From: Methanobacteriota archaeon
GTDB taxonomy: Archaea > Thermoplasmatota > Poseidoniia > Poseidoniales > Poseidoniaceae
Direction of reading: 5' to 3'
Length of the DNA: 64,000 bases
Assembly: GCA_002719815.1 (NCBI GenBank)
Contig: PBET01000024.1
Location: 3,393-67,392 of the forward strand
The notes beneath the pieces were generated by a model. The model saw nothing but the letters and a program-made list of their open reading frames with translations. It was not told the origin of the DNA and made no database searches. Below, in pieces: positions 1 to 24,442 of the stretch (its first letter is position 1; each line of letters starts with the position of its first letter). The position numbers and the translations under genes were made by a program.

Positions 1-667
1 TATTGCTCGATTGAAAGAACATGCAACGAAACTGAGAATTGATCATTCACTCATCGATGAACGTTCGATTGTTAAGCACTTGGAACTGAGCCCCCCAGAA
101 TTGAATGAAGGTCTCGTTCGAGTTGATGTTTCAGATTCATCGCACATCACCATCACGTATCGTCCATTCTCAGTTCAAAACGAATGCATAGATGCGATCA
201 CACATCCCAGCCCACGTTGGCCAAAGCGTGTTGCTGGAACAAAGCACGGTGCTTGGTCAGCATACATTGAAGCAAGAAAGGAAGCAGAAAGGAAAGGGGC
301 TGATGTAGCACTACTCGTACATGAATATTCAATTATTGATGGAGATCGATGCTCCCCGATTGTTCTCGATGAAGATGGTGTCGTTTGGATCAGTAATTCA
401 CCACTTGCTGTTGATTCAATCACAATTGAATTGATTCGCCCATTTCTCATCGCTTCAGGTTATCACATCCAAACTGGCCAACTCAACGAACGTCTGGTTG
501 CACGATGTGCCGAATTGGTTGCTGTCGGAACGGGTGTAGGTGTTGTAGGCATTGAGTCAATTGATGATGAACCTGTTGGCGACGATCGATTACGTCTCTT
601 TGAAGCCTGTACTTTAGCGCTCAAACAACTCTACGACATTACAGAACATTGGACCGAGGTGTGGTGA
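1..667 (+). CDS. Aminotransferase class IV / aminodeoxychorismate lyase-like (PabC-like), 5' partial at window edge
   Basis: Open frame runs to position 1 with no upstream stop; C-terminal half resembles class IV (BCAT/ADCL) fold motifs; 19-nt overlap with downstream pabAB-like gene. Confidence 0.5.
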   Translation, partial: IARLKEHATKLRIDHSLIDERSIVKHLELSPPELNEGLVRVDVSDSSHITITYRPFSVQNECIDAITHPSPRWPKRVAGTKHGAWSAYIEARKEAERKGADVALLVHEYSIIDGDRCSPIVLDEDGVVWISNSPLAVDSITIELIRPFLIASGYHIQTGQLNERLVARCAELVAVGTGVGVVGIESIDDEPVGDDRLRLFEACTLALKQLYDITEHWTEVW

Positions 668-2865
668 TGAATCCCCTAGACGCTGTTCGGCATTGTCTCA
701 TGGAACATGAACTCTTAGGGGAAGATGCTGCTAATTTTGGTTCACCAGATGAAATCATGCTGGTTTCTGCAGGACCTGTCAGCCATCTCTCTCGCTTCTC
801 ATTACTCTGTGGGCCTTCAACAAAAAGGGTCATCGTCCGACAACCGTCGAGAGAACAAGTACCTGTAGCAAATCCTCATTCACCTTTGGCTGGAGAAATT
901 GATTTGGCCACCAAGTTGCCATTTACATTTGATCGAGAGACGTGGGATGGTTCGTCCTGGAAACCTGATGTGTCGTACACAAGTGCATCGCTTTCAACTG
1001 GATTGAGGAAAATATGTACATGTTCCAACGGGCAATTCAAACCGGATGATTCGACAGATGTCCCCTTCCATGGTCCATTTTGGACGGGCGCATTATCGTA
1101 CAATTTGGTACAAATGACGCAACCATTACGATTACAATATCCTCCAAATGAAGGCGAACTACTCTGCGTATTGTGGGAAATCGAACACTGTATTGTTCAT
1201 GATAAGGAGCGTGATGCGTTGGTTGTTTTATCGACAGATGTTCATTGGAAGGAGAGAGCGAACGAGTGTCTATCCAATGCTCCACTGGAAACAGTTCCTT
1301 TCGATGTTTTGATTGGCGAGAAACCATCTTCAAATTGCACCGATGCCGAACACGAAGAAATTGTCAAAACTGTTCAATCATCAATCGTTGATGGTCAACT
1401 CTACCAACTTAATTACGGTCGTTCATGGGAAGGAGCGGTTTTGACAGAACCATGGGATGTCTTCTGTCATTCAATTGCATCAAATCCTGCCCCATATTCT
1501 GGTTTTTTGCACATGAAAGATGAATCGTTTGCACTCATTTCTGCTTCACCAGAATCACTTCTTGCAACTGAGAAAGGCATCATCACAACAGCTCCGATCA
1601 AAGGGACTGCACCAAGGGGCGCATCAGAGGCCGAGGAGATACTTCTTCGTGAAGATATGATTTCTGATCGTAAGGAACGAGCTGAACATCGAATGCTGGT
1701 TGACCTTATGCGAAACGATGTCGGACGCATCTCAAAGCCAAATCAAGTCTGGGTGGAACGATTTGATGTTGAAGCCTATGCTGAAGTTCAGCATCTCGTT
1801 TCACGAATCAAAGGTCGATTGAACGATGGTATCGATGTTTTTGACGCGATTGAAAACGTATTTCCTGGAGGTTCGATTACAGGATGTCCGAGGACCGTTG
1901 TCTGTGCAGCAATCGATGAATTGGAGCAATACCCTCGCTCGTTTTGGACTGGATCGATGGGTTGGTTCGACCCTTCAACTGGTGATTCATCTTGGAATAT
2001 TTTGATACGAACGGCTGAACTTCACAAAAGGGACGACGGTTGGACATCTAGAGTTACAGCAGGAGGAGGGATTACCATTGAATCAAATCCAAAATCGGAG
2101 GTTGCTGAAGCCAAGTGGAAAGCAAATGGACTCCTACGATCATGTGGTTGGATTGACGACACTGTTCTCGCTTCCCCTGTCAAACATCTTGCCATTCATT
2201 CTCTACCACTCGAAAGCCAGCAATCGAATCACGAAGTTTCATTCTCAATTCATACCGATGAACTTGTGAAGAATGCGGTCTTGTTAATCGATAATTTGGA
2301 CTCATTTACCTACAACATCGCTCACGATATTTGTGGACTTGGCCATCATGTGAACATTGTTTCTGGAAGGGATCATTCACATCACTCCGCTCAGGAACTT
2401 CTCGAAGAATTACAACCATCCCATGTCGTTCTAGGACCGGGGCCAGGATGGCCACAAGACAGTCCCTTGACGATGGATTTCGCAAAGCAAGCACTTGAAG
2501 GCAATACCCCTCCACTTCTCGGGATTTGTCTTGGTCATCAAGCAATAGGTCTTGCATCTGGTCTCGACGTCGCCCCTAGTCCGATTGGACCCGTTCATGG
2601 CACACCCGTCAAGTGTTTACACGAAGGAAATGGTTTGTTTGAAGGCTTAGATGAACTATCGGTGACCCGTTACAATTCCTTAACATTGTTGACAGTTGAA
2701 TGTCAAGGACATGATAGCATTGTTATTGATGCAACCGATGACACGAAGTCGCTTGTTCTTGGCCTTCGCTCAACACAAGCATCCGTCTTTGGCGTACAAT
2801 TCCATCCAGAATCGGTTGGCAGTCAATCAGGTGTACAAATCCTGTCAAGATTTCTTGAATATTGA
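649..2865 (+). CDS. pabAB: Fused aminodeoxychorismate (or anthranilate) synthase component I + glutamine amidotransferase component II
   Basis: 738 aa; chorismate-binding enzyme signature FPGGSITGCPR, C-terminal class I GATase (LIDNLDSFTYNIAHDI, GICLGHQA, FHPES); adjacent class IV aminotransferase favours Pab over Trp. Confidence 0.8.
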   Translation: MDRGVVMNPLDAVRHCLMEHELLGEDAANFGSPDEIMLVSAGPVSHLSRFSLLCGPSTKRVIVRQPSREQVPVANPHSPLAGEIDLATKLPFTFDRETWDGSSWKPDVSYTSASLSTGLRKICTCSNGQFKPDDSTDVPFHGPFWTGALSYNLVQMTQPLRLQYPPNEGELLCVLWEIEHCIVHDKERDALVVLSTDVHWKERANECLSNAPLETVPFDVLIGEKPSSNCTDAEHEEIVKTVQSSIVDGQLYQLNYGRSWEGAVLTEPWDVFCHSIASNPAPYSGFLHMKDESFALISASPESLLATEKGIITTAPIKGTAPRGASEAEEILLREDMISDRKERAEHRMLVDLMRNDVGRISKPNQVWVERFDVEAYAEVQHLVSRIKGRLNDGIDVFDAIENVFPGGSITGCPRTVVCAAIDELEQYPRSFWTGSMGWFDPSTGDSSWNILIRTAELHKRDDGWTSRVTAGGGITIESNPKSEVAEAKWKANGLLRSCGWIDDTVLASPVKHLAIHSLPLESQQSNHEVSFSIHTDELVKNAVLLIDNLDSFTYNIAHDICGLGHHVNIVSGRDHSHHSAQELLEELQPSHVVLGPGPGWPQDSPLTMDFAKQALEGNTPPLLGICLGHQAIGLASGLDVAPSPIGPVHGTPVKCLHEGNGLFEGLDELSVTRYNSLTLLTVECQGHDSIVIDATDDTKSLVLGLRSTQASVFGVQFHPESVGSQSGVQILSRFLEY

Positions 2866-2914
2866 GCGCATGGTTGAAATGACGGCAGTATTTGGGTAGG
2901 AATGAGGGAAGAAG

Positions 2915-3301
2915 ATGCCAGTCTGTCGACTCTGTTCTGGAACCTATCCACGCGAATTCTTCATTCATGGGAATGGACCAAAAACACAGGTCTGTGCACG
3001 ATGTGGTGTTGAGCACGGTTATATCAGTAAAGATGAGGCAACAAATCTCTACGATGATACACTGAAGTCTTCACGTCTCAGCACTGTTACTCGCCGATAT
3101 CGGCCCTTCCTCTACCTCACAGTTCTGTGGACGATTTACATCACAACAGTTCGAAGTATTGACCCATGGGGCTGGTACATGCTGATTATGCTCGCAATTC
3201 TAACACTCGCTTCAATTGTGCTCTTTTTCACCAGTGCTGCAAAGTTTTCCAGCACACTTGCTCGGCTAACGCCTGATTTTGAGCGCCCAAAAGGCCATTG
3301 A
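2915..3301 (+). CDS. Small membrane protein with N-terminal Cys4 zinc ribbon (CRLC...CARC) and 2 TM helices
   Basis: ATG start with upstream purine-rich SD-like GGGAAGAAG; no recognisable family. Confidence 0.45.
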   Translation: MPVCRLCSGTYPREFFIHGNGPKTQVCARCGVEHGYISKDEATNLYDDTLKSSRLSTVTRRYRPFLYLTVLWTIYITTVRSIDPWGWYMLIMLAILTLASIVLFFTSAAKFSSTLARLTPDFERPKGH

Positions 3302-3304
3302 GAT

Positions 3305-4600
3305 TCACTTTGAATGAATCCTTAGAACGTCTCCATCGGAGAGTTCATGTTCAGCCCCAACGATTCGTCGTGTACGTCCATCAACACCTTTGATGAAACC
3401 ATCTCCGAGATCGGAGTGCACTTTGTATGCCACTTGTTTGGCTTGGATACCATTCTGAACCACAAAAGCATCAGGCAATACGTTACCATCCCCATCGGTC
3501 CAATGGGTTTCATCTTGGACAGGATAAACAACAATACGATCGAGTTCCTCAAAAAGAACCTGATCAAGAAGATTGGTCAATCCAGTTCCTTGTAATTTAT
3601 TCAAACGTTCACCAAGAACCGACATGCCTTTCATTTGCGCATCGTTCATCGGCTGATTTTGATTTAATTCAAATGAAGTTGAACCGGGTGTATAGGAAAT
3701 AAATCCTGCCTTGCTCGCTTGACGGAGCGCTAATTCTGTTTCTGCCGAGCACGGTGTAAATTGATCGAGTGTGGCTTGAAGGTGGTCGAGTACACCATCA
3801 GGGGCCATGTCCGCTTTGTTCCCTGCAATAAAGATAGGAAACAACTGCTTCCTCAATGAAGAGGCAAGGAGAATCAGTACATCATCGGACCAATCCCATG
3901 GAGATGTCATGTCGCTATGGAGTTGGGTGAATGCATCAAAGGCGCGTTGACACGTGGAATCTGTTGCTCCCAATCCGGATAGGCGCTCTTGCAGGAATTG
4001 AGTGAATCCCTTCACACCTTCGGCTTGAATTCGACGAGCGCCGCGAGACCAGCCCTCTTTGACAAGCCCTAGAATCCATGCATCAAGTTCCTCTGTAAGG
4101 AAGGTGATTTCTGCAAGTGCTTGTTCAATCGCTTGTTCTTTTGTTGCTTTCAATCCTGTTGGATTTCCTTCAGCATCGGTTGTTCCTGCAACATCAATGA
4201 CCTGAATCAATGCATCGCATTCTGCTAAATCGGACAAGAAAGCATTCCCTCGGCCTCGTCCTTCACTTGCTCCAGGAACCAAGCCTGCAACATCGACCAA
4301 CATGCAAGGAACGTATCGCCTGTGCCCTTCACAAGAGCCTGTGCGTGGTGTGCAGATACTGCCTCCACGATCATCACTGAGTTGGCTACGACCGTCTTGT
4401 TCAAGTCGCTCTCGTAGGGACATACAGGGGCAAGGTTCTCGACTTGGAACAAAGGAAAATCCAACGTTTGGTTCAATCGTACAAAACGGATAATTTGCAA
4501 TATCGACTGGAATCAATGTCGATGCTGCAAAGAAAGTCGATTTGCCGACGTTTGGTTTACCAACCAATCCAATTCGCACGGTTTGACCGCCTCGCTTCAC
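3305..4600 (-). CDS. ychF: Obg-like ATPase/GTPase of the YchF/OLA1 family with C-terminal TGS domain
   Basis: G1 motif GLVGKPNVGKSTFF and YchF hallmark ANYPFCTIEPNVG; TGS-like C-terminus; Cys-rich ~50 aa insertion; start overlaps stop of upstream gene (4597-4600). Confidence 0.8.
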   Translation of the reverse strand: MKRGGQTVRIGLVGKPNVGKSTFFAASTLIPVDIANYPFCTIEPNVGFSFVPSREPCPCMSLRERLEQDGRSQLSDDRGGSICTPRTGSCEGHRRYVPCMLVDVAGLVPGASEGRGRGNAFLSDLAECDALIQVIDVAGTTDAEGNPTGLKATKEQAIEQALAEITFLTEELDAWILGLVKEGWSRGARRIQAEGVKGFTQFLQERLSGLGATDSTCQRAFDAFTQLHSDMTSPWDWSDDVLILLASSLRKQLFPIFIAGNKADMAPDGVLDHLQATLDQFTPCSAETELALRQASKAGFISYTPGSTSFELNQNQPMNDAQMKGMSVLGERLNKLQGTGLTNLLDQVLFEELDRIVVYPVQDETHWTDGDGNVLPDAFVVQNGIQAKQVAYKVHSDLGDGFIKGVDGRTRRIVGAEHELSDGDVLRIHSK

Positions 4601-6558
4601 TCTTCTTCGACGACACCAGAGCGTACTCGTGCAATGGCGATGTCAAGTTCTGGGAGGTTGACTCGACCGTCTCCGTCAAGATCGATGAATTCCATGAGAC
4701 GTGCGATATCCCATGGAGGCAAATCTGCAATGTCTGTACTTCGTAGTGCCTGCTGGAGTTCATAGCCATCGATAAGGCCAGAGTCATCCAAATCGATTGA
4801 ACGGAAGAATTCAAAGATGCTCATGTCCTTCTTTGCGAGATAGTCTGACAGCATCTCAAGTTCATTCTTTTCAACTGGGAATTCATCAACTTCATCGTTG
4901 TGGAGGGTTGATGAAACTTCGATAATGGTCATTCCGCCATCGTCTTCAACATCGGCTCCAACGACCAAAACGGTATCGACACCAACGCCGCGTTGCAAGA
5001 GCTTTCGAATCGAAGATTCACCACGTTGCATGGAATAACGACTGATGTCCGAGGTTGTCGAAACGGTTGTATCGACTTTCATTCCTCCAATGGATGTTCG
5101 AATGAGATTCAAGAACAAGAGAATGACACCAATCGAAGCGAAGTAGAAGAGAACGGATGCGGTTAAACTGAATCCACCATCTGTCATGACCACGTCTTCA
5201 CTACCGGAATCGAGAAGTGCTTTTTCGGTGAAGTCACCCATCAACTTCGCAACTGTCGAAGTGACGGCACCAAAGGCGATGAGCATGGTTGACAGGGATG
5301 CAGATGATGAGGATGCGAGTTTACGGCCGCCTGCTAATGGATAGGATTCTGCGACACAGGCGACGGCCATAAGTCCGCCAACAGTCCACATGAAACCAAC
5401 ATCAACGGTTGTGGCCATGTCATTCAGTGCGCCAAGGCCAATGAACACGTCAAGTGAAGTGAAGTATCCTCCAATTGCATACAGTGGGAAGAAGACCATT
5501 GCAAGCGTTGCCGCTAATGCGCCTGGTCGAGATACAACACCTGTTGCATTGCCAAGCGAGGTCATGATGATGTTCACCGAACCTGCCATAATTGGCAAGA
5601 GGGCAAGCGTCATGAGGATGGCCCCGAGATTCTCGAGGAGTGTCCCAGCATCAGCCGATGATAGCATGAATGGAGGCAAGGTGAAGAAGAGAAGAAGAAG
5701 GCTTGCCTTCGTCATTGAATCGGACCAAATCGGGCGACTTGCTGCTCGAGGAACTACGTGATATGCAACCGAGAAGATAAGGGCGATAAGCGCCCAAGAT
5801 TGTGTCATTCGCTCTCCGAGCCAAACTGTTTGGGTTGAGTCAGCCAGTTCCCCAAAGAATCGGAATTGTGAACCGAAGATGAACGATGCAAGAGCCATGA
5901 ACATGAACCAGTTGCTTGCTGAGATGATGTCGCCCTTTCGTTGTGCCACTGTTAGGAGAACGTTGATCATCACTGCAATGATGATAAATGAGCGCAATGC
6001 ATGCATGAAGAGGTCTTGAATAAGGGCTTCATTTGCGGCTGTTAAATCGATAACAAGGCCAAGGATTGTTGGTAGAAGCATCGATGAAATGGTGAGGACT
6101 GAAAACAACAATCCAGTCAAACTGGCATTGGCTTCGCTTGCGAGACGGCCTGCTCCTGCTCGTGCTGCAGCAACCAAGCCACCGCCGACGAGAATCGAAA
6201 TTAGACCAGTCATCAAGGTCACATCAACGAATGTAGCCAACGCGCTTCCATCGTCATATTCCCATCCAATGCTTGCGAGCGAATCGAGGGCTGTAGCATC
6301 ATAATCGTGCCATAGTGCGAGGAATGTGCCGATTGCTGCAAAAGTTAGCCAGATCATTCCAAGGTTCATCCACGTCTTCGATCCACTTCCTTTGTCATCG
6401 TTGAAGAGATCAACAATTCCAGCTGGTGCTTTGTTGAGCAGAAAAAGGCCAAATTGACGCATCGGTTCGGCCATGTTTCCAATCCCACGTTGAAGATAGA
6501 ACGTAGCAAAACCAACCACCGTGAAGAAGAAGAAAAGTGCGATAAATACTGCATCCAT
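4597..6558 (-). CDS. Polytopic (~13 TM) membrane protein with cytoplasmic C-terminal EF-hand pair
   Basis: 653 aa; hydrophobic core; C-terminal DLDDSGLIDGYEL and DLDGDGRVNLPEL canonical EF-hand loops; translationally coupled to ychF-like gene. Confidence 0.75.
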   Translation of the reverse strand: MDAVFIALFFFFTVVGFATFYLQRGIGNMAEPMRQFGLFLLNKAPAGIVDLFNDDKGSGSKTWMNLGMIWLTFAAIGTFLALWHDYDATALDSLASIGWEYDDGSALATFVDVTLMTGLISILVGGGLVAAARAGAGRLASEANASLTGLLFSVLTISSMLLPTILGLVIDLTAANEALIQDLFMHALRSFIIIAVMINVLLTVAQRKGDIISASNWFMFMALASFIFGSQFRFFGELADSTQTVWLGERMTQSWALIALIFSVAYHVVPRAASRPIWSDSMTKASLLLLFFTLPPFMLSSADAGTLLENLGAILMTLALLPIMAGSVNIIMTSLGNATGVVSRPGALAATLAMVFFPLYAIGGYFTSLDVFIGLGALNDMATTVDVGFMWTVGGLMAVACVAESYPLAGGRKLASSSSASLSTMLIAFGAVTSTVAKLMGDFTEKALLDSGSEDVVMTDGGFSLTASVLFYFASIGVILLFLNLIRTSIGGMKVDTTVSTTSDISRYSMQRGESSIRKLLQRGVGVDTVLVVGADVEDDGGMTIIEVSSTLHNDEVDEFPVEKNELEMLSDYLAKKDMSIFEFFRSIDLDDSGLIDGYELQQALRSTDIADLPPWDIARLMEFIDLDGDGRVNLPELDIAIARVRSGVVEEE

Positions 6559-6568
6559 TCATATCACC

Positions 6569-6841
6569 TCAATCTGCTAGGACCTCGCCTGCCAGTGTCG
6601 ATACAATCGCTCCAAGTCCAATGATGAAACCAAGCAGGTAGTACCAAATTCCTGAACCTCCAAGATTGGACATCAGTGGCACGATGTCGCCGATAACCGG
6701 GATGTTATCCCAGCCGAAGATGGTGCTGAAAAGACCAAACATTCCGATGGTTACAACCGAAAGCAAAACAAGAATAATTCGGCTTGATGATGGTTCTGCA
6801 GTTCCGATGACTGCATCAGGGAGTTCTGTGCTATTCGACAT
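6569..6841 (-). CDS. Small 2-TM membrane protein, first gene of the EF-hand membrane protein/YchF operon
   Basis: 90 aa hydrophobic ORF 10 nt upstream of the 653-aa membrane protein on same strand. Confidence 0.45.
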   Translation of the reverse strand: MSNSTELPDAVIGTAEPSSSRIILVLLSVVTIGMFGLFSTIFGWDNIPVIGDIVPLMSNLGGSGIWYYLLGFIIGLGAIVSTLAGEVLAD

Positions 6842-6941
6842 ACCTTGACCTCATGCGTCCAAGATGGACATGCCTGCGACTCAAAGCGCGGTGATAAACA
6901 TTCACCAAGAGCATCATTGAACCGCTCAATAACTCGGCTAT

Positions 6942-8108
6942 TCACGGCGAGCGAAGAATGTTGGTAAGAGAACCACGTCTTGGCATTGAAGTTCCAAGTG
7001 GGACCGGAATGGTTCTGTCATTCATTAACTCCTGATTCCATTGATTTTTGCAGACACAATCCAATCCTTGAAACTCATCCAGTGAACCAGAAACAGCATA
7101 ACGCTCGATCGCTGCAACAACTTCAGCATCGCATTCTCCACAATTGTGAGAGCCACGTATCTTTCCACCGGCAGTTGGATGGATAATCAAACGAGAAATT
7201 TGATCATCATCTCCATTCATTCCGCCATTTGGATGGACGATGTGGTGACTCTGTTGAATGAGTTCGACCAAGGACCAAAGCCAGGGAGGGCGATATTCAC
7301 GATGGCGATGAAGTCGATCGATAACAGTCCCTCGCTGGATGTTCATTGGATTGATGGAAATCTCATCGCTCTGTTCTGCAACAGCTTCAATCCACTTTAC
7401 ACAATGATCGAGTGCATCAGCTTCGCTCATAAACGGGGGTTTGAACATCAAATAGGTCTTGACTCGGAGATTGAATTTCTTGAGGCGTTCGACTGCTCGA
7501 TCCCACGATGCTGCAGAAAATCCTTTGTTCACGTGAAATCGTAGGACTTCATCATCGTAGGCTTCCAAGCCAATCGCTACCGTAAAATTTGGATTGATTG
7601 ATGTGGCCCAAGCCAATTTCTCTTCAGTTAGTTGTTCGGTTCGACTCTCGACAATGAGTTCCTTTCCAAGTTCGAAACAATCTCGTAAGACCGTTTCTTG
7701 GAAATCAACCGGGATTTCTCGATCTTCAAGCAACGAACCAGATGTGTAAACCTTGACCATCGATTGGCCTTCAAAATTAGAAAATTTATCCTTCGCGTGT
7801 TGCCATTGCGCATGAAGATCTTCGCTTGTGACATCATCGCGTGTATCGTTAAAATAGCCACAAAATGTACAACCTGAGGACCACCACCAATGGCAACCTT
7901 TGGTCCGAAGAATAACCGTAACCGCTGAGCAGGGTTCACCTTCAGTCGTCATCTCTGGTGTGGAATACACCGTTGCAGGAAACGATGCATCCCATGATTG
8001 TTGACGTTCTTTTGCCCATGGCGTATTTGCAGGGGCTTTGACGAGATCGTGGATTTTGAGGCTCTTTGAGGAATCCCCTAACATCGTAAGAGGTTTCTTC
8101 GATGACAA
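6942..8108 (-). CDS. Radical SAM protein, TIGR01210/RaSEA-like (archaeosine-pathway type), atypical Cys spacing
   Basis: VILRTKGCHWWWSSGCTFCGY cluster (C-x7-C-x2-C) in position of RaSEA CxnCxxC; ~60 aa N-terminal extension. Confidence 0.55.
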   Translation of the reverse strand: MSSKKPLTMLGDSSKSLKIHDLVKAPANTPWAKERQQSWDASFPATVYSTPEMTTEGEPCSAVTVILRTKGCHWWWSSGCTFCGYFNDTRDDVTSEDLHAQWQHAKDKFSNFEGQSMVKVYTSGSLLEDREIPVDFQETVLRDCFELGKELIVESRTEQLTEEKLAWATSINPNFTVAIGLEAYDDEVLRFHVNKGFSAASWDRAVERLKKFNLRVKTYLMFKPPFMSEADALDHCVKWIEAVAEQSDEISINPMNIQRGTVIDRLHRHREYRPPWLWSLVELIQQSHHIVHPNGGMNGDDDQISRLIIHPTAGGKIRGSHNCGECDAEVVAAIERYAVSGSLDEFQGLDCVCKNQWNQELMNDRTIPVPLGTSMPRRGSLTNILRSP

Positions 8109-8120
8109 TCTAGCAACCCC

Positions 8121-8975
8121 TTATTCTTCTTCGGAAATTCTTCGAAAGAGAATATCCGAACCCGCTTTAACAAACTGGCCTTTTGGATGCTGAGGATGGT
8201 TGTCTTCTGCAGAGATGACTTGAGGCTCATAGAGTGCTGCAGGAACTCGAACATCGACTCGGCTGCCGAGACGGATCATTCCGTAACGCTCGCCTCTTCG
8301 AAGTGTATCTCCAATCCCTTTCCAAGGAACAATCGTTCGAGCAAGCGCACCCGATATTTGCATGACTTCAGTGCGCTCTCCATCCTCTGCTTCGAAAACA
8401 GTACGGACACGTTCATTGTATTCGCTTTCTTTGCGATAGGCAGGCGCAAAGGGGCCGCGACGACGTCCTTTGCCCGTTCGATGTTCCATTGCAATAATCC
8501 TCGCTGAACGTGGCGCTCGGTTGACGTGAACGTCAAGAGGTGACATGAAGATGGCAACACGCCAAACATCTGAGTCATGAAGCGTTCCTTCCACGGGCTC
8601 GAATCGCTGTTCGGTTTCAAAGGTTAGAGGATTGTCACATGCTTGAGGATACCAGTCGCCCGTATGCTCATCGGTCTCAATGCTCTGCTCATCTCGCTCA
8701 GTTTGCGATGGTCGACGACCATTGGCTCGCTCACGACGAACAAACATCACGTGTCCATCTGCAGGTGAGACCAAAATGCCTGAATCTTGAGGAATTGGGC
8801 GATCAGGATCTCGCCAGAAATTAGCAAAGAAAACTGCAACCATCAAACAAAGAACGCCTAGGAGCGGTAACAGTCCATTCAATGAGTCAAGATAGATGCC
8901 GCCAACAAGAATTGCAACACCTGCAAGAGCGAAGGTTGCTACTGGAGCATGACCTCCCTGAGCAAGGCCTGCCAA
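8121..8975 (-). CDS. psd: Archaeal-type phosphatidyl(archaetidyl)serine decarboxylase proenzyme
   Basis: N-terminal TM helices, PSD core, LGSRVDV pyruvoyl-forming GS motif. Confidence 0.75.
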   Translation of the reverse strand: MAGLAQGGHAPVATFALAGVAILVGGIYLDSLNGLLPLLGVLCLMVAVFFANFWRDPDRPIPQDSGILVSPADGHVMFVRRERANGRRPSQTERDEQSIETDEHTGDWYPQACDNPLTFETEQRFEPVEGTLHDSDVWRVAIFMSPLDVHVNRAPRSARIIAMEHRTGKGRRRGPFAPAYRKESEYNERVRTVFEAEDGERTEVMQISGALARTIVPWKGIGDTLRRGERYGMIRLGSRVDVRVPAALYEPQVISAEDNHPQHPKGQFVKAGSDILFRRISEEE

Positions 8976-8986
8976 GATGGTTCACC

Positions 8987-9787
8987 TCAGTTGTCAGCCC
9001 ATGGGTCGACATCGGAGTTCCAGGTTGCATCTGCTTCAGCGGGTTCTTCCGCTTCTTCAGCAGGTTCCTCTGCTTCTTCTGCGACCTCTTCTGAATCCTC
9101 TGATGTTTCTTCTGGGGCTTCTTCTTCGGCTGGCTCTTCGACAGCTTCTTCTTCCGAAGGTGCTTCTTCAACAACGCCTTCTTCAATGAGTGCTTCAGCT
9201 TCCTCGACGGTCATTTCAGCAGCACGTGCTTCGACCATCTCATCCATACGTTCTGTGAACGCTCGAGACATGTGTTGAGATTCTCGTTCGGCTTCAACCG
9301 CACGCTCGATCATCTCATAACGTTCCTTAATGGCCTTGTTGAGGTCTTCAAAGAGTGTCATGTGAGCAACATACCAATCATCACGAGCCTTCATTTCAGT
9401 AACTGCGAGTTTCAAATCATTGTCAAGTTCTTCCGCAATTCCAAACACTTTCCCAAGACGATCTTTCTCTCGAGAATACTTCTCTTCCATTGTTTGGAGA
9501 GCAGGTTCCAAATGCTCAACACGCTTGTCTGCTTTTGTAGCCTTCATCTCAAGTTCACGAATACGGAAATCTTTCTCCGCGATAAGTGATTCTTGCGCTT
9601 CACGCTCAATCTCTTTGTCGATAATTTCTTTTTCGAGAACTTCGATCTCTGCTCGTGCATCAACAAGTTCCTTTTCTTGTGTTTCATACGCTGCAAAGAG
9701 TTTCTTCAGACGGTCTGTTTCAGTGGCGAGTGCCTCTTCAAGCTGGCCGATTCGAACTTCGGGAGTGATGGTTCCTTCTTCACTCAT
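8987..9787 (-). CDS. Coiled-coil protein with acidic (E/P/A-rich) C-terminal tail
   Basis: 266 aa, heptad-rich KELVDARAEIEVLEKEI etc., tail EEPAEEAEEPAEADATW; no family recognised. Confidence 0.7.
   Translation of the reverse strand: MSEEGTITPEVRIGQLEEALATETDRLKKLFAAYETQEKELVDARAEIEVLEKEIIDKEIEREAQESLIAEKDFRIRELEMKATKADKRVEHLEPALQTMEEKYSREKDRLGKVFGIAEELDNDLKLAVTEMKARDDWYVAHMTLFEDLNKAIKERYEMIERAVEAERESQHMSRAFTERMDEMVEARAAEMTVEEAEALIEEGVVEEAPSEEEAVEEPAEEEAPEETSEDSEEVAEEAEEPAEEAEEPAEADATWNSDVDPWADN
9040..9175. repeat. Imperfect short tandem repeats (CTTCTTC/GCTTCTTC units) encoding the acidic tail; low complexity
   Basis: Visible repetition of cttcttc.gc(a/t)g units on + strand; antisense frame gives Lys-rich shadow ORF 8887..9186. 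Confidence 0.5.
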
Positions 9788-9897
9788 TTTTTCACCCGGA
9801 GGTATGCCTCCACATCAACCCAGCCGCCTTTACCCTATGAAGCCGACGCCTCGTTGAGAACGATTGCACACTTCTCGGTCCTATGTTCTATGCACGA

Positions 9898-11778
9898 CTA
9901 GAATTTCTTTTTAGGACCACCAGGGAATAACCAGCGACTGGATTTTTCAGACGTTGCTTTGTCTTCGCTCTTCTCATATTTTTCCCTTCTAAAGAATATG
10001 AGCGATAGGAGGGCAATGATTGCTATTGCTGCAATCATGAGGTACATTGTGTTGGCATCGAGAGAGGATGCTTCTTCTGAGCGCGTGCCATCATTCGGGT
10101 ATGCATCCGTGTTATCCCCAACGCCATCGCCATCGGTATCGGTTGTTTCAGATGCATCATTTGGAAACGCATCAAGAGAATCCACTGTTCCATCGCCATC
10201 GGAATCTCTTTCGATTATTTCAATCGCATTCTCAACAACAATTGTTTCTCGGATACCGCCAATTTTCAGCAACGTTATTTGGAGATCGTACATCGACATT
10301 TCTGCGAATTCTGGTGCCTGAATCTCAACCTTCCATACACTATTTTCCGAGGCAGTGACTCTACCGCGTAAGTCTGATTCATCTTCCCAATCGCCTTGAG
10401 GTGCTGGACCCGCCACTGAGGCGAATGGAGCGATGTTGTAATCGATTGGTTGAGGCGTGTTTTTGTCGCTTCCTGAACCAATTCCTAATGGTCCATATTT
10501 ACCGCGACCCCAGCACGATACCGACCCGTTTTCATACAGACCACAGACATGGTCATAATTCACGCTCAAATCAACGATGTTTGTTGGCCCTTCAACGAAC
10601 ATTGGTGTAAGATAAATACCGCCAGTGACACCAATCCCAAGGCGGCCAAAGTGATTGTGCCCCCAACAGTATAGACTACTGTTTTCTAAGATAGCACACG
10701 AACTATGTGGGCCTACTGAAACCGATACTGCTGATGAACTGTCTGGCAATTGAGCATAGACTGGAATGAGTCGATTGGTGGTAGTATTCTCTCCAAGTTG
10801 ACCATAATTGTTCAAACCCCAGCAAGTGATTGAGCCGTTGTCAAGTAGAGCACATGAATGATGGTCTCCAACAGAAAGATCTGTCGCAGCGCGCCCTTCA
10901 GGTAACTCGACATTTGAAGACGGGGTATGAATCGTATCGCTCGTATCGCCATTTCCAAGTTGACCCACATTGTCACGGCCCCAGCACATAACGCCTCCAT
11001 CGTCAAGAAGTATACAGGTGTGTGTTGCTCCAGGCTCGACTTTCACAACTTTCCGATCCGATGGAGTCGTAATTGTTTGAGGCGTGTATTTGTCGCTTGT
11101 ATCCAAATTTCCGTTTCCTAAAGCTCCATATGAGTCAAGACCCCAGCAGGTCAAGTTGTCATCTTCTAAGATTGCACACGTGTGCTTAAGTCCCATACCG
11201 ATTGATTTCACACCCTTACCATCTGGAAATTGTACCTTCACGCTGGGAGATTTGTAGGTATTGGTTGAGTCATCACCGGCCTGCCCGTCTTCATTGAATC
11301 CCCAACAACTTGCAGAGTTGTCATCGAAAATGATGCACGTTCGCAATTGTCTCGCATAAATCTGGTCTACGCTTTGACCTTCAGCAATTGAAACGAACGA
11401 AGTAGGCTTATTCAAATTCGTTGCATCGCCACCATCGCCAAGTTGACCATAATTATCGAGCCCCCAACACATAGCTGAGCCATTTTCAAGGATTGCACAA
11501 CTATGCGAGTTTCCAGTGGCAAGTACAGATGAATGTGCTTTAGAAGCCATCGTATCCACTGAGACGAATTCATAACGAATTGTCGAGATACCAACATAAT
11601 CACTGAGATCAATGCTACATTCCATTGACTCGGCTTGGTTTACGTTAGCCTTCGGGCAATCTAATTCGAGTGATGTGCTTTCTTCAGCAATTGTTTGAAT
11701 AGGAACTAGAAGCAGAATTACAAGACAAATTCCTGCCTGAAGGTGAAGCAACCTGCCTCTCGACGGGGTTTTGACCAT
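9898..11778 (-). CDS. Secreted/anchored RCC1-repeat seven-bladed beta-propeller protein with C-terminal Asp-rich Ca-binding (TSP3-like) repeats and TM anchor
   Basis: Signal peptide; 7 repeats CWG.(D/N)..GQLG(D/N)G; DTDGDGVGDNTDAYPNDG; C-terminal hydrophobic helix + basic tail. Confidence 0.8.
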   Translation of the reverse strand: MVKTPSRGRLLHLQAGICLVILLLVPIQTIAEESTSLELDCPKANVNQAESMECSIDLSDYVGISTIRYEFVSVDTMASKAHSSVLATGNSHSCAILENGSAMCWGLDNYGQLGDGGDATNLNKPTSFVSIAEGQSVDQIYARQLRTCIIFDDNSASCWGFNEDGQAGDDSTNTYKSPSVKVQFPDGKGVKSIGMGLKHTCAILEDDNLTCWGLDSYGALGNGNLDTSDKYTPQTITTPSDRKVVKVEPGATHTCILLDDGGVMCWGRDNVGQLGNGDTSDTIHTPSSNVELPEGRAATDLSVGDHHSCALLDNGSITCWGLNNYGQLGENTTTNRLIPVYAQLPDSSSAVSVSVGPHSSCAILENSSLYCWGHNHFGRLGIGVTGGIYLTPMFVEGPTNIVDLSVNYDHVCGLYENGSVSCWGRGKYGPLGIGSGSDKNTPQPIDYNIAPFASVAGPAPQGDWEDESDLRGRVTASENSVWKVEIQAPEFAEMSMYDLQITLLKIGGIRETIVVENAIEIIERDSDGDGTVDSLDAFPNDASETTDTDGDGVGDNTDAYPNDGTRSEEASSLDANTMYLMIAAIAIIALLSLIFFRREKYEKSEDKATSEKSSRWLFPGGPKKKF

Positions 11779-11842
11779 GGTACTACGTCACCCTTCTCCT
11801 TTATTGACTGATTTATTCTACTCAGTATCCATGACGTGCTTT

Positions 11843-12802
11843 TTACACTGAATCGGTAGCCTCAACCAATGCTTTTGCAATCGGAACTTCACCCATTGAA
11901 TGGCCTGCATCAGGAATCATATGAAGCGTCGATTTGGGAAGTTGTTTATGCAATTCCCATGCGCTTTTCGCAGGACAGACCATGTCATAGCGACCTTGTA
12001 CAATGATTGCAGGAATGTTTTCTATTGCCTCTGCATTGTTGAGAATGTAGGAATCTTCTACGAAAATTCCATTGATGAAATAATGGCATTCAATGCGAGC
12101 AAACGCTACTGCAAAATCAAGATCTTCCGCCTTTTCAAGGTATTCTGGGTCGGGGAACAGTCGACTTGTCGCCATCTCCCAACGCGTCCATTCCTTCGCC
12201 GCAGCACGGCGAACTTCAACGTCTTCACTCGTTAGGCGCTTGTAATAGGCAGGAATGAGCGCCGATTGCTCATCTACTGGAATGTGTTGCTGATACGGCT
12301 CAAAGGCATCTGGGAAAACATGACTTGCTCCTTCTTGGTAGAACCAGTGCAATTCAGATGTTCTGCACATGAAGATGCCTCGAAGAATGAACGATCGGAC
12401 GCGGCTAGGGTGAGTAATTCCGTAAATGAGCGAAAGCGTTGAACCCCATGAGCCTCCAAAGACATGCCACGTATCGATACCGAAGTGCATTCGTAATGCC
12501 TCGATATCGGAAACGAGGTGCATGGTTGTATTTTCTTCAAGATCTGCATAAGGCGTTGATTTTCCACAACCTCGTTGGTCGAACTGGATGATGTTCCACT
12601 TTTGTGGATCGAAATATTGTCGATACGATGGTTGGCTTCCTCCACCTGGGCCACCGTGGATGACAATGACTGGGGTGCCGTCAGGATTGCCTGCACATTC
12701 CCAAGCAATTGTGTGGCGATCTGATACTGCAAGCATGCCTGTTGAATACGGTTCAATTTTCGGGTAGAGTACGTCGTCAATCGATTGAGAGGTTAGGCTC
12801 AT
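11843..12802 (-). CDS. pip: Proline iminopeptidase (prolyl aminopeptidase, S33 alpha/beta hydrolase)
   Basis: LYPKIEPYSTGML..., VIVIHGGPGGGS, FDQRGCGKSTP; start set at internal ATG (12800-12802), longer ORF-track start would overlap divergent gene. Confidence 0.85.
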   Translation of the reverse strand: MSLTSQSIDDVLYPKIEPYSTGMLAVSDRHTIAWECAGNPDGTPVIVIHGGPGGGSQPSYRQYFDPQKWNIIQFDQRGCGKSTPYADLEENTTMHLVSDIEALRMHFGIDTWHVFGGSWGSTLSLIYGITHPSRVRSFILRGIFMCRTSELHWFYQEGASHVFPDAFEPYQQHIPVDEQSALIPAYYKRLTSEDVEVRRAAAKEWTRWEMATSRLFPDPEYLEKAEDLDFAVAFARIECHYFINGIFVEDSYILNNAEAIENIPAIIVQGRYDMVCPAKSAWELHKQLPKSTLHMIPDAGHSMGEVPIAKALVEATDSV

Positions 12803-12872: not shown

Positions 12873-13499
12873 ATGAAGCAGGCAACAGACGTCTTCAACG
12901 ATTGGGCACACCGAGGCAAAGACGAGGGTATGGAACGTGGACACAGTCCTGCTGTCAATGAAATGTTGGAGGTTGCTTTCCAACGAGTCAATCAAGGAAA
13001 TCAACCCTTTTCATTCGCTGATTTAGGATGTGGAAATGGCTGGGTTGTACGATTGGTTGGTGGGCATGAGAACTGCATGCGAGCTGATGGTTTTGATGGT
13101 GCACCGCACATGATTGAGAAGGCAAACAACATTGATTCGAAACATGGTTATCATCTTGCTCTGTTTCCTGATACACAACCTCCTCAACAATACGATTTCA
13201 TTCATTCAATGGAATTCATTTACTACCTTCATGAACCTCAACAGATGCTACAATCAATTCACGACGATTGGTTGGCCGATGGAGGTTGGGCTGTAATTGG
13301 AATCGATCATTATGCGGAACATGAGGAAAGTCTTGGTTGGCCAGAAGCCCTCGATGTACATATGTCGACATTTACAGAGCAGGAATGGATTGCAATGTGG
13401 AATGACGTTGGATTTACTGAAATTCATGCGTGGAGAGCAAACCAATCCGAAGGAAAACCAGGAACACTCGCCATCATTGGGAAGAAAAATCAGAATTGA
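12873..13499 (+). CDS. Class I SAM-dependent methyltransferase
   Basis: Motif I FADLGCGNGWVV; start chosen at ATG 12873 (MKQATDVF); 3' end overlaps convergent AddA-like gene by 26 nt. Confidence 0.7.
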   Translation: MKQATDVFNDWAHRGKDEGMERGHSPAVNEMLEVAFQRVNQGNQPFSFADLGCGNGWVVRLVGGHENCMRADGFDGAPHMIEKANNIDSKHGYHLALFPDTQPPQQYDFIHSMEFIYYLHEPQQMLQSIHDDWLADGGWAVIGIDHYAEHEESLGWPEALDVHMSTFTEQEWIAMWNDVGFTEIHAWRANQSEGKPGTLAIIGKKNQN

Positions 13500-23495: not shown

Positions 23496-23542
23496 ATCGT
23501 GAGATGGATTATCTCATTAAGGAGAGGTTCGTCCAGCGATAC

Positions 23543-24442
23543 ATGACTCGATTGCTCGTTGTTGGAGTTTTAGTTGTCCTGATGGTTTCTGTTGTACCTG
23601 TAGCGCATGCTGCGGAGATTAAAGAACTTGAAACAGGCATGCTCTTTGGTGGACTTCATGGAATGGCGAATGAGACCATCGTCGTCAACAGTAGCCTAGA
23701 AGATCTTCCTGCAATTGCTGAAGATTACACAGCCACCTGGTGTGGAAATTGTGTTGAAGTCGGCAATGCGCTCGAGACTGTGGCGGAGAACATCAGCATG
23801 GAGATCTATGCTGTTCATCGGAACATCTACGAGACTCAGGATCCACTAGGCAACGAGAATGTCGACGCACGCTTTAGGGACCGATACGATATCTATGCGC
23901 CAGAATTCAAACCTCCTGTGGCCGGTATCAATGGCAAGTACTCCCTTCGTGGTAGCAACCCTGTTGGTGATTCTCTGGAATCTGACTTTGCAGACTTAGC
24001 ATCACAACCGCATAATCTTGGAGATGGTTCCGTCACAATGACATGGACACCAACGGGTGATAATTCAGGAACTGTCGCTTGGAGCATTGATCAATCAACC
24101 AGTGCAGTTTACAATGTAACCATATGGATGGTCGAGAAAGAAGCTTACTTCCCAGATGGTACAAACAACCAGATCTACTACCATCACATTGTTCGTGAAA
24201 TCATTGATGTGGGAACTGTTACTGAAACTGGACTGAGTACGGGAACTGAGCAGATTACCTATGCCGATGCATACGATGATGATGACCTTGAAGTCCATAT
24301 CATGTTCCATGAGTACATCGAACGTCCTGAAATACAAGACGAGACCCCAACAGAACCTACCTCAGAGGATACACCCTTCCTCTCCATGCCTTTGACGATA
24401 CTTGCCCTTCTTGCAGTAGCCCTACGGCGACAGGATCAGTAG
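23543..24442 (+). CDS. Secreted thioredoxin-fold (WCGNC) protein with Thr/Pro-rich linker and PGF-CTERM-like sorting tail (PFLS...TM...RRQDQ)
   Basis: Signal peptide after ATG 23543 (alt ATG 23504); CxxC motif TATWCGNCVEV; C-terminal hydrophobic helix + basic residues. Confidence 0.65.
   Translation: MTRLLVVGVLVVLMVSVVPVAHAAEIKELETGMLFGGLHGMANETIVVNSSLEDLPAIAEDYTATWCGNCVEVGNALETVAENISMEIYAVHRNIYETQDPLGNENVDARFRDRYDIYAPEFKPPVAGINGKYSLRGSNPVGDSLESDFADLASQPHNLGDGSVTMTWTPTGDNSGTVAWSIDQSTSAVYNVTIWMVEKEAYFPDGTNNQIYYHHIVREIIDVGTVTETGLSTGTEQITYADAYDDDDLEVHIMFHEYIERPEIQDETPTEPTSEDTPFLSMPLTILALLAVALRRQDQ

What the first reader, a model, noticed from the sequence alone, without database searches (positions are those of the whole stretch)
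3305..6841. Operon coupling a YchF/OLA1 GTPase to a 13-TM membrane protein with a cytoplasmic EF-hand pair
Three same-strand genes are tightly linked, with a 10-nt gap then a 4-nt overlap. They are a 90-aa two-TM protein, a 653-aa polytopic membrane protein whose C-terminus carries two textbook EF-hand loops (DLDDSGLIDGYEL, DLDGDGRVNLPEL), and a YchF-family ATPase/GTPase with TGS domain and a Cys-rich insertion (CPCMSL...CTPRTGSCEGH). YchF is normally a stand-alone, ribosome-associated factor. Co-transcription with a putative Ca2+-sensing transporter-like membrane protein is not a described arrangement. It suggests a membrane-tethered or ion-regulated translational stress module.
Basis: partly seen in the sequence, partly recalled or inferred. 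Interest (0 to 1): 0.55.

Follow-up and report, generated by a model that had tools for sequence, protein, structure and literature searches.

The report
Cofactor-less oxidase relic with GTPase operon
In abundant marine archaea (Poseidoniales), a membrane protein descended from the catalytic subunit of a respiratory oxidase has lost all its metal-binding residues and gained a calcium-binding tail. It is always encoded in one tight unit with a tiny membrane protein and a GTPase, which suggests an undescribed non-respiratory membrane module.

Summary
In detail: three tightly packed minus-strand genes at 3305-6841.

- **Membrane protein.** The "transporter-like" 653-aa protein is a heme-copper oxidase subunit I homologue, closest to cbb3 CcoN (Foldseek TM 0.78; profile vs 3mk7_A E 1.4e-18). 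None of the six histidine ligands nor the cross-linked tyrosine is conserved, so it cannot be an oxidase. Its EF-hand pair is canonical, cytoplasmic and invariant in Poseidoniaceae.
- **GTPase.** It is not YchF/OLA1 but belongs to the sister Ygr210/PRK09602 subfamily (NKAD G4, TGS domain). Its four cysteines are ancestral. Only a charged loop of roughly 17-23 residues between them is lineage-specific.
- **Linkage.** Gene order (small 2-TM protein, oxidase relic, GTPase) holds in about 90 Poseidoniales loci. It also holds in five distant contexts (21-30% identity) where the flanks are rearranged and the EF-hands may be missing. Four outgroup archaea show no such linkage. A conserved BRE/TATA-like box precedes the trio.

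Function is inferred only. The most likely model is a non-redox membrane platform that docks or regulates the GTPase, with Ca2+ as an input in Poseidoniaceae. I found no description of it in the searchable literature.

The parts
6892..6902 (-). BRE/TATA-like promoter box AATGTTTATCA, 51-61 nt upstream of the small gene's ATG
   Evidence: The motif AA[TC]NYTTA[TA] is found 62-70 nt before the start codon in about 80 unique loci, including the distant L087-L095. Its function as a promoter is inferred from the archaeal BRE/TATA consensus, not shown.
6857..6869 (-). Inverted repeat GTCCA-TCT-TGGAC between the promoter box and the SD (possible 5'-terminal mRNA hairpin or operator); weak in this window
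   Evidence: The equivalent position holds a 7-8 bp GC-rich repeat in most Poseidoniaceae (z -2 to -3.6) and a different perfect repeat in L089 (z -4.1). The window's own stem scores only z -0.7. RNAalifold found no consensus.
6569..6841 (-). Gene 1: 90-aa protein with two TM helices (probably N-in/C-in), conserved external loop and GNLGGSGIWYYL motif; no known family
   Evidence: ORF. No Pfam, NCBIfam or PADLOC hit. Homologous 87-97-aa ORFs sit directly upstream of the oxidase-like gene in all loci, 30-42% identical in the distant ones. GAGGT lies 6 nt before the ATG.
6563..6570 (-). Shine-Dalgarno-like GAGGTGAT for gene 2, overlapping the stop codon of gene 1
   Evidence: Sequence. GGAGGTG is conserved at the same place in other loci.
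4597..6558 (-). Gene 2: 653-aa, 13-TM cofactor-less homologue of heme-copper oxidase subunit I (CcoN-like) with a cytoplasmic tail
   Evidence: AF2 model pTM 0.69. Foldseek top 50 hits are all HCO/NOR subunit I, best cbb3 CcoN at E 2.8e-10, TM 0.78. Family profile vs 3mk7_A gives E 1.4e-18. Ligand positions are replaced.
5086..6558 (-). Membrane domain (aa 1-491): extra N-terminal helix plus the 12-helix oxidase core. Former ligand positions are R250 (CuB His), F291 (Tyr), F297/M298 (CuB His-His), V385/V387 (heme His)
4972..5022 (-). Juxtamembrane cytoplasmic motif (aa 513-529, G-x4-IRKLLQRGVGVDT); R518, G524, D528, T529 invariant in the whole family, including tail-less members
   Evidence: No match to PDB or Pfam.
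4645..4821 (-). EF-hand pair (aa 580-638); Ca2+ loops at 4759-4794 (DLDDSGLIDGYE) and 4648-4683 (DLDGDGRVNLPE)
   Evidence: Pfam EF-hand_7/1/6. Calmodulin-like hits in PDB. Loop residues are invariant in A1.
3305..4600 (-). Gene 3: Ygr210/PRK09602-subfamily Obg-like GTPase with TGS domain. Longest ORF starts at GTG 4600; the conserved start is probably GTG 4579
   Evidence: NF007171 420.7 bits > 387; PF08438, PF01926, PF02824. 1wxq E 4.3e-87. G1 GKPNVGKS, G3 DVAG, G4 NKAD. Start analysis.
4358..4423 (-). Poseidoniales-specific charged loop (MSLRERLEQDGRSQLSDDRGGS) inserted between the ancestral Cys pairs C57/C59 and C83/C90 (431-aa numbering)
   Evidence: Alignment A4: the insertion is present in all GTPases linked to the oxidase-like gene and absent in Pyrococcus, Thermoplasmata, Methanothermococcus, Hadarchaeum and Undinarchaeota.

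Best explanation
This is a Poseidoniales-specific three-gene operon encoding a non-redox membrane module.

Shown. Gene 2 descends from the catalytic subunit of a C-family (cbb3 CcoN/NorB-like) heme-copper oxidase. It keeps the 12-helix fold and the TM6-TM7 loop motif. It has replaced every heme and CuB histidine and the active-site tyrosine with hydrophobic or basic residues, so it cannot bind the cofactors or reduce O2 or NO. It has gained an extra N-terminal helix and a cytoplasmic tail. The tail carries an invariant juxtamembrane motif plus variable modules: an EF-hand pair in Poseidoniaceae, often a SAP/HeH-like motif, and sometimes a coiled coil. Gene 1 (small 2-TM protein) and gene 3 (Ygr210-type GTPase with a lineage-specific loop) have been inherited with it as a unit, behind their own BRE/TATA-like box.

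Inferred. The small protein and the relic form a membrane platform whose conserved cytoplasmic face (loop 25-57, RLASE, PIWS, the juxtamembrane motif) docks the GTPase, possibly through the GTPase's inserted loop. The tail modules tune this docking or the GTPase cycle, with cytoplasmic Ca2+ as an input in Poseidoniaceae. Output would run through the GTPase's TGS domain (RNA or ribosome binding, as in other Obg-family members) and, where present, through nucleic-acid binding by SAP.
For: Fold and homology: Foldseek top 50 all HCO/NOR subunit I, CcoN TM 0.78, E 2.8e-10. Family profile vs 3mk7_A E 1.4e-18, with shared W...Y-x-x-P-K-x3-R-P-x-(Y/W)-S and N...T motifs. Family member P0151 passes Pfam COX1 (42 > 34.8).

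Loss of function: H207->R250, Y251->F291, H257/258->F297/M298, H345/347->V385/V387. At most 2 of the 5 securely mapped His-ligand positions (H60 excluded) hold His in any of 20 diverse members, and no His is invariant.

Unit inheritance: identical order in 86 loci. It is kept in L087, L089, L091, L093 and L095 at 21-30% identity with different flanks, and the small protein is homologous in all. Gaps are 4-14 nt and 9-63 nt across loci.

Own promoter box in about 80 unique loci.

Specificity: four outgroup lineages have unrelated neighbours around the orthologous GTPase and lack the loop insertion. The family has only 95 representatives among 1.84 billion proteins; every member whose organism is named or whose genomic context was examined is from Poseidoniales or marine group II/III archaea.

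Cytoplasmic tail: 13 vs 0 K/R. EF-hand residues are invariant in Poseidoniaceae.
Against: There is no direct evidence that the three proteins interact or are co-transcribed; everything beyond gene content is inferred from gene order. RaSEA also stays upstream in the distant loci, so some of the conserved adjacency could be neutral. The EF-hand pair is missing in many members, so Ca2+ cannot be the core signal. The juxtamembrane motif matches no known interaction domain. The function of Ygr210-type GTPases is itself unknown (PMC8629797 lists the subfamily without a role). The tail region 496-563 of the model has pLDDT < 50.
Confidence: 0.5

Rival explanations
1. GTPase-gated ion pathway. The relic keeps a polar pathway derived from the oxidase proton channel and conducts H+, Na+ or Ca2+. 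The GTPase and the EF-hand tail gate it, working like a split FeoB (G-protein plus polytopic permease) or an EF-hand-regulated carrier.
For: Polar residues are conserved inside helices: N329 is invariant, T333 is Thr in 17 of 20 family members, and both are shared with CcoN's N...T. T203, S279 and Y472 are also conserved, as are T384/D386/T392 in Poseidoniaceae. The G-domain has a weak FeoB_N resemblance. EF-hands sit on the cytoplasmic side, where they could report ion entry.
Against: Most invariant residues are W, G, P or F, which are structural. No acidic or basic intramembrane residue is invariant across the family. The FeoB_N hit covers only the P-loop and is below threshold (26.1 < 27). 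No transporter family matches the protein. D386 is not conserved outside Poseidoniaceae.
Confidence: 0.2
2. Conserved neighbours without functional coupling. The GTPase is the ordinary stand-alone ribosome-associated factor. The relic and the small protein do something unrelated, for example acting as a structural or assembly partner of the genuine respiratory chain. The order is frozen by compact genome organisation.
For: A much larger block (coiled-coil protein, ASD, RaSEA, trio, orf128, pabAB) is collinear across Poseidoniaceae. RaSEA, which has no obvious link, is also retained upstream in distant loci. MGII genomes encode real cytochrome c oxidases that a relic could associate with (PMC6336850).
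Against: The flanks on both sides changed in five distant contexts while the trio stayed contiguous with short gaps. The GTPase acquired a lineage-specific loop exactly in the clade that has the linkage. One promoter box precedes the trio, and the internal cistrons are SD-led with no room for promoters. No oxidase genes lie nearby in the window.
Confidence: 0.22
3. The protein is still a redox or gas-handling enzyme that uses unconventional ligands.
For: It keeps the full oxidase fold. A few members retain His at one or two canonical positions, for example P0147. New HCO families with altered active sites keep being found (PMC11214002).
Against: No His, Cys, Met, Asp or Glu in the membrane core is invariant across the family. 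All described HCO and NOR families keep the heme histidines (PMC11214002). No electron-donor subunit (CcoO/CcoP, subunit II or NorC) is encoded nearby.
Confidence: 0.04

Closest known systems
cbb3-type cytochrome c oxidase subunit CcoN (C-family heme-copper oxidase; PDB 3mk7, 9g83, 8smr) and the related NorB
   Same: Same 12-helix core fold (TM-score 0.73-0.78). Detectable sequence homology (E 1.4e-18). Shared TM6-TM7 loop motif Y-x-x-P-K/R-x3-R-P-x-Y/W-S and a TM8 N...T motif. Both termini of the core are cytoplasmic.
   Different: All six His ligands and the cross-linked Tyr are replaced. There are no CcoO, CcoP or CcoQ partner genes. It has an extra N-terminal helix and a 160-residue cytoplasmic tail with EF-hands (and SAP in relatives). 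It is encoded with a GTPase. The window protein itself does not reach Pfam COX1.
Ygr210 / PRK09602 'YchF-related' Obg-family GTPase (P. horikoshii structure 1wxq; yeast YGR210c)
   Same: The window GTPase passes the NCBIfam subfamily cutoff. It has the G domain, the YGR210-like G4 domain and a C-terminal TGS. It aligns end to end with 1wxq (E 4.3e-87).
   Different: It carries a charged insertion of roughly 17-23 residues between the two ancestral Cys pairs, plus a further 6-residue insertion in Poseidoniaceae. It is operonic with two membrane-protein genes, whereas outgroup orthologues have unrelated neighbours.
YchF / OLA1 (redox-regulated ribosome-binding ATPase)
   Same: Same Obg family; similar P-loop and switch regions. 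Public annotations often call the Poseidoniales protein 'YchF'.
   Different: It fails the YchF equivalog model (100 vs 279 bits). It lacks the YchF C-terminal domain (19 < 27 bits). Its G4 is NKAD (guanine-specific) instead of YchF's NxxE-type motif (the YchF motif is from general knowledge).
FeoB and EF-hand-regulated membrane proteins (for example mitochondrial Ca2+-regulated carriers, LETM1). These are functional analogies only.
   Same: A G protein or an EF-hand pair on the cytoplasmic side is coupled to a polytopic membrane domain.
   Different: No homology of the membrane domain. The coupling here is through separate genes. No transport function has been shown.

Membership tests
Heme-copper oxidase superfamily, subunit I | 12-TM subunit I fold | tested here: met
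   Foldseek: the top 50 PDB hits are all HCO/NOR subunit I, with TM up to 0.78. The model has pTM 0.69.
Heme-copper oxidase superfamily, subunit I | Sequence homology to subunit I | tested here: met
   Family profile vs CcoN 3mk7_A gives E 1.4e-18. Family member P0151 passes Pfam COX1 (42 > 34.8). The window protein alone gets only a faint NCBIfam hit (16.7 bits).
Heme-copper oxidase superfamily, subunit I | Six conserved histidines ligating low-spin heme, high-spin heme and CuB/FeB | tested here: not met
   H207->R, H257/258->F/M, H345/347->V/V. H60 aligns to a His-free helix. At most 2 of the 5 securely mapped positions hold His in any of 20 members.
Heme-copper oxidase superfamily, subunit I | Active-site tyrosine (oxygen reductases) or FeB glutamate (NORs) | tested here: not met
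   The Y251 equivalent is F291, and F/L/M/A/V/I in the family with a single Tyr. No invariant Glu in the core.
Heme-copper oxidase superfamily, subunit I | Adjacent electron-entry subunit (subunit II, CcoO/CcoP, NorC) | tested here: not met
   The neighbours are a 90-aa 2-TM protein with no family, a GTPase and RaSEA.
YchF/OLA1 | Passes the YchF equivalog model and has the YchF C-terminal domain | tested here: not met
   TIGR00092 100 bits vs cutoff 279.2. PF06071 19 bits vs 27.
Ygr210 / PRK09602 GTPase subfamily | Passes the subfamily model; G domain, YGR210-like G4 domain and TGS | tested here: met
   NF007171 420.7 > 387. PF08438 1.3e-25, PF01926, PF02824. Full-length alignment to 1wxq.
Ygr210 / PRK09602 GTPase subfamily | Intact G1, G3 and G4 motifs (GTP binding) | tested here: met
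   GKPNVGKS, DVAG and NKAD are conserved. Hydrolysis itself is not testable here.
EF-hand Ca2+-binding pair | Two canonical 12-residue loops with oxygen ligands at positions 1, 3, 5, 9 and 12, flanked by helices | tested here: met
   DLDDSGLIDGYE and DLDGDGRVNLPE. Pfam EF-hand_7 33.5 > 30. Flanking helices are present in the model. The residues are invariant in A1.
EF-hand Ca2+-binding pair | Actual Ca2+ binding | not testable with these tools
   Needs ITC, 45Ca overlay or a structure.
Operon (co-transcribed unit) | Same strand, short gaps, a single upstream promoter, order conserved beyond local collinearity | tested here: met
Operon (co-transcribed unit) | A single transcript covering all three genes | not testable with these tools
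   Needs metatranscriptome read mapping or RT-PCR.

The most novel reading that the evidence does not exclude
The oxidase catalytic-subunit scaffold has been repurposed in a whole order of abundant marine archaea. It would be the membrane receptor of an Obg-family GTPase, forming a new kind of membrane-to-ribosome or nucleic-acid signalling module. That module would read cytoplasmic Ca2+ through EF-hands, could tether nucleic acid through SAP/HeH, and would be the first functional context for the uncharacterised Ygr210 GTPase subfamily that archaea share with fungi.
Probability: 0.3. Interest if true: 0.8.

Novelty: new variant of a known kind. Interest (0 to 1): 0.62.

Why it matters
Heme-copper oxidases are among the best-studied membrane enzymes. 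Every described family (A, B and C oxygen reductases and the various NORs) keeps its heme and metal ligands. A conserved, ligand-free descendant would be a clear example of a respiratory catalytic subunit turned into a pseudoenzyme scaffold.

It is fixed in Poseidoniales, a globally abundant group of surface-ocean archaea. It is fused to eukaryote-style EF-hand and SAP modules. It is genetically locked to a GTPase of the Ygr210 subfamily, whose function is unknown in archaea and in yeast. The linkage therefore gives a concrete, testable handle on that GTPase, and on calcium signalling in archaea, which is barely documented.

Tried and rejected
- **Transporter assignment.** Pfam and NCBIfam scans of the membrane protein found no transporter family.
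- **Defence system.** No PADLOC hit for the trio or the convergent orf128. The housekeeping, syntenic context also argues against it.
- **Known RNA element.** The leader and intergenic regions of window 1-12000 gave no Rfam match at E <= 1.
- **Consensus RNA structure of the leader.** RNAalifold returned nothing because the stems sit in different registers. Per-sequence folding supports a hairpin in most clades but not in the window.
- **Juxtamembrane motif.** A profile against PDB and Pfam gave only insignificant matches; the best was a UBX domain at E 0.73.
- **Small protein as an oxidase subunit II hairpin.** I considered and dropped this. The single Arg before TM1 suggests N-in/C-in, opposite to subunit II, and there is no sequence similarity. 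The evidence is weak.
- **Four Cys as a lineage-specific insertion.** Rejected, because they are present in the outgroups.
- **Second structure prediction (GTPase).** Not run, because the tool returns no coordinates. Cys clustering or an interface could not have been read from it.
- **Literature.** Searches for a ligand-less oxidase homologue, for EF-hand/SAP proteins in archaea, and for a Ygr210 function found nothing specific. PMC9258230 mentions only that Poseidoniales-specific modules contain calcium-binding domains. It also reports a different, halobacterial family distantly related to HCO.


Full report
**1. The observation**

The window's minus strand carries three ORFs: 6569-6841 (90 aa), 4597-6558 (653 aa) and 3305-4600 (431 aa). 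A 10-nt gap separates the first two. All three are real genes, with homologues in the same order in about 90 independent loci.

The organism is a Poseidoniales (Marine Group II) archaeon. This follows from the source names of near-identical proteins and from archaeal neighbours: the archaeosine enzyme RaSEA (TIGR01210, 289.8 bits) and archaetidylserine decarboxylase.

The 4-nt overlap between genes 2 and 3 relies on the longest ORF. Across loci, the only GTPase start present everywhere lies 13-28 nt after the upstream stop, and the -4 start occurs in a subset. In the window that conserved start corresponds to GTG 4579 (17-nt gap). It is preceded by AGGCGGT and matches the N-terminus of the crystallised homologue. 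Either way the cistrons are tightly packed, with SD-like sequences in the gaps.

**2. The membrane protein**

It has no transporter signature. An AlphaFold2 model built from 16 homologues (pTM 0.69, TM helices mostly pLDDT 75-95) was searched against the PDB. Its 50 best matches are all catalytic subunits of heme-copper oxidases or NO reductases. The best are cbb3 CcoN chains (E 2.8e-10 to 4e-9, TM-score normalised to target 0.73-0.78).

Sequence supports the fold. A profile of 20 diverse family members hits CcoN 3mk7_A at E 1.4e-18 over 335 profile positions. The TM6-TM7 loop motif and other anchors are shared. One distant member, P0151, passes Pfam COX1's own threshold (42 > 34.8).

Using the CcoN alignment, I mapped the residues that define the enzyme:

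| CcoN residue | Role | Window protein |
|---|---|---|
| H207 | CuB ligand | R250 |
| Y251 | cross-linked Tyr | F291 |
| H257 / H258 | CuB ligands | F297 / M298 |
| H345 | heme b3 ligand | V385 |
| H347 | heme b ligand | V387 |
| H60 | heme b ligand | aligns to a His-free helix |

Across 20 members spanning 21-53% identity, no histidine is invariant. No member keeps His at more than two of the five securely mapped ligand positions. The protein therefore belongs to the superfamily by descent but fails its defining catalytic features. It is a cofactor-less relic.

MGII archaea have genuine low-affinity cytochrome c oxidases elsewhere in the genome (PMC6336850). None is in this window.

**3. Topology and tail**

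The modelled helices give an extra N-terminal helix plus the 12-helix core. The loops carry 13 Lys/Arg on one side and none on the other. That gives N-out/C-in, consistent with CcoN's cytoplasmic C-terminus. It has two parts in the window protein:

- **A juxtamembrane motif** (aa 513-529). R518, G524, D528 and T529 are invariant in every family member. It matches no known domain.
- **A canonical EF-hand pair** (Pfam EF-hand_7, 33.5 > 30). Its Ca2+-coordinating residues are invariant in 16 Poseidoniaceae-type homologues.

Relatives add a C-terminal SAP/HeH-like motif, a second EF-hand pair or a long coiled coil. Many Thalassarchaeaceae-type members have no EF-hands at all. Ca2+ sensing is thus an accessory of the module, not its core.

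**4. The GTPase**

It belongs to the Obg family but not to YchF/OLA1. It scores 420.7 bits on NF007171 'YchF-related putative GTPase' (cutoff 387) and only 100 on the YchF equivalog (cutoff 279). It carries the YGR210-like G4 domain and a TGS domain, and it aligns end to end with the P. horikoshii structure 1wxq (E 4.3e-87). The G1, G3 and G4 motifs are intact, with NKAD at G4.

The Ygr210 subfamily is one of five in the Obg family and has no assigned function (PMC8629797).

The four cysteines (C-P-C ... C-x-P-x-x-S-x-C) also occur in Thermoplasmata, Methanococcales, Hadarchaeota and Undinarchaeota orthologues. What is specific to Poseidoniales is a charged loop of roughly 17-23 residues inserted between the two Cys pairs.

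**5. Is the linkage meaningful?**

Within Poseidoniaceae the whole eight-gene block is collinear: coiled-coil protein, ASD, RaSEA, trio, convergent orf128, pabAB. That conservation alone does not show coupling.

The informative cases are five distant contexts: L087, L089, L091, L093 and L095. There the relic is 21-30% identical, and the loci are named Thalassarchaeaceae or marine group II/III. Three things hold in those loci:

- The downstream flank is different: phosphoglucomutase, two Band_7 genes, or the ribosomal L12/L10/L1/L11 cluster.
- ASD has moved away.
- The order small protein, relic, GTPase is intact, with gaps of 4-12 nt and 9-63 nt. The small ORF is homologous throughout (30-42% identity).

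RaSEA also stays upstream, but it is separated by 75-113 nt. That spacer contains a BRE/TATA-like box (AATGYTTAWSR) at a fixed 62-70 nt from the small gene's start in about 80 unique loci. The trio therefore appears to have its own promoter.

In four outgroup lineages the orthologous GTPase has unrelated neighbours and lacks the loop insertion: Pyrococcus, a Thermoplasmata MAG, Methanothermococcus and Hadarchaeum.

An exhaustive HMMER scan of 1.84 billion representative proteins found only 95 relatives of the relic's membrane domain. The family, and hence the linkage, is lineage-restricted.

**6. Mechanism**

Shown: gene content, descent from an oxidase, loss of all cofactor ligands, cytoplasmic EF-hand tail, unit inheritance with the GTPase, and a lineage-specific change in the GTPase.

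Inferred: the relic and the small protein form a non-redox membrane platform that docks or regulates the GTPase. The candidate contact surfaces are the relic's conserved cytoplasmic elements and the GTPase's inserted loop. Tail modules supply inputs (Ca2+) or extra outputs (nucleic-acid binding by SAP). I put about 0.5 on this general model and much less on any specific output, such as translation control.

Rivals:

| Rival | Confidence |
|---|---|
| GTPase- or Ca2+-gated ion pathway that reuses the old proton channel | 0.2 |
| Conserved but functionally unrelated neighbours | 0.22 |
| Residual redox chemistry with unconventional ligands | 0.04 |

**7. Comparison and novelty**

The closest known entities are CcoN/NorB for the fold and 1wxq/Ygr210 for the GTPase. 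FeoB and EF-hand-regulated carriers are analogies only.

Surveys of HCO diversity that I could read describe only families that keep the heme ligands (PMC11214002). A survey of archaeal hypothetical proteins notes calcium-binding domains in Poseidoniales-specific modules, and a different halobacterial family distantly related to HCO, but not this protein or operon (PMC9258230). Other searches found nothing. Public annotations call the relic 'hypothetical protein', or at most 'EF-hand/SAP domain-containing'. A few fragments were auto-labelled as oxidase subunit 1.

I rate it a new variant of a known kind: an oxidase-superfamily pseudoenzyme in a new genetic partnership. There is a real chance that the three-gene module is a new kind of system.

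**8. Verdict**

The finding is real and more interesting than first described, but for a different reason. The key fact is not 'YchF plus a Ca2+-sensing transporter'. It is 'a ligand-less respiratory oxidase subunit, with an EF-hand tail, locked to a Ygr210-type GTPase across an entire archaeal order'. Function remains inferred. Interest: 0.62.

Noticed in passing
window 6857-6869 (minus) and equivalent positions in L001-L095: An inverted repeat lies between the promoter-like box and the SD of the small gene. It is TGACCCC-TAY-GGGGTCA in most Poseidoniaceae (z -2 to -3.6), with different perfect repeats in L089 and L095. It is weak in the window (z -0.7) and absent in L091 and L093. It could be a 5'-terminal mRNA hairpin or a palindromic operator at the transcription start.
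   Followed up: partly
window 2915-3301 (+): A 128-aa ORF with an N-terminal CxxC...CxxC zinc-ribbon-like motif and two TM helices converges on the GTPase gene, with only 3 nt between the two stop codons. It is conserved in Poseidoniaceae (47-93% identity) but replaced by other genes in the distant loci. No Pfam or PADLOC hit.
   Followed up: partly
window 6942-8108 (-) and L091, L095: The archaeosine radical-SAM gene RaSEA stays immediately upstream of the trio even in the distant loci, behind a separate ~100-nt spacer. Outgroup archaea do not have RaSEA next to the GTPase. Whether this reflects a tRNA-related link to the TGS-domain GTPase is open.
   Followed up: partly
window 8987-9787 (-): A 266-aa coiled-coil protein with an extremely acidic C-terminal tail (EE/AEE repeats) sits directly upstream of the archaetidylserine decarboxylase gene. 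It is conserved there in Poseidoniales and has no Pfam family.
   Followed up: no
window 9898-11778 (-): A 626-aa secreted or anchored protein with RCC1-like beta-propeller repeats. It has a C-terminal stretch of D-x-D-G-D-G calcium-binding-type repeats (thrombospondin type 3-like) and a C-terminal TM anchor.
   Followed up: no
window 58829-60949 (-): A bacterial-type NAD-dependent DNA ligase (LigA: adenylation, OB, HhH and BRCT domains) is encoded in this archaeal genome.
   Followed up: no
window 13474-22148 (-): Two very large adjacent genes (1657 aa UvrD-type helicase with a PD-(D/E)XK nuclease domain, and 1234 aa with PD-(D/E)XK) resemble a bacterial AddAB/RecBCD-like helicase-nuclease pair.
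   Followed up: no
window 24436-26709 (-), 61992-63875 (-), 23504-24442 (+): Large ORFs (757, 627 and 312 aa) with no Pfam match at E <= 1e-5.
   Followed up: no
L095 1264-1944; tails of P0045, P0058, P0137, P0148, P0151, P0166: SAP/HeH-like motifs, typical of eukaryotic chromatin-tethering proteins, recur in Poseidoniales. They appear both as the C-terminus of the oxidase relic and in a separate 226-aa protein near the locus.
   Followed up: no
P0147 (L091), P0161, P0125, P0127, P0137: A few family members retain His at one or two of the canonical ligand positions (H207 and/or H347 equivalents). Many Thalassarchaeaceae-type members share a His near the cytoplasmic end of TM II (L-H-I-x-x-R). 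These may be intermediates of active-site decay.
   Followed up: partly
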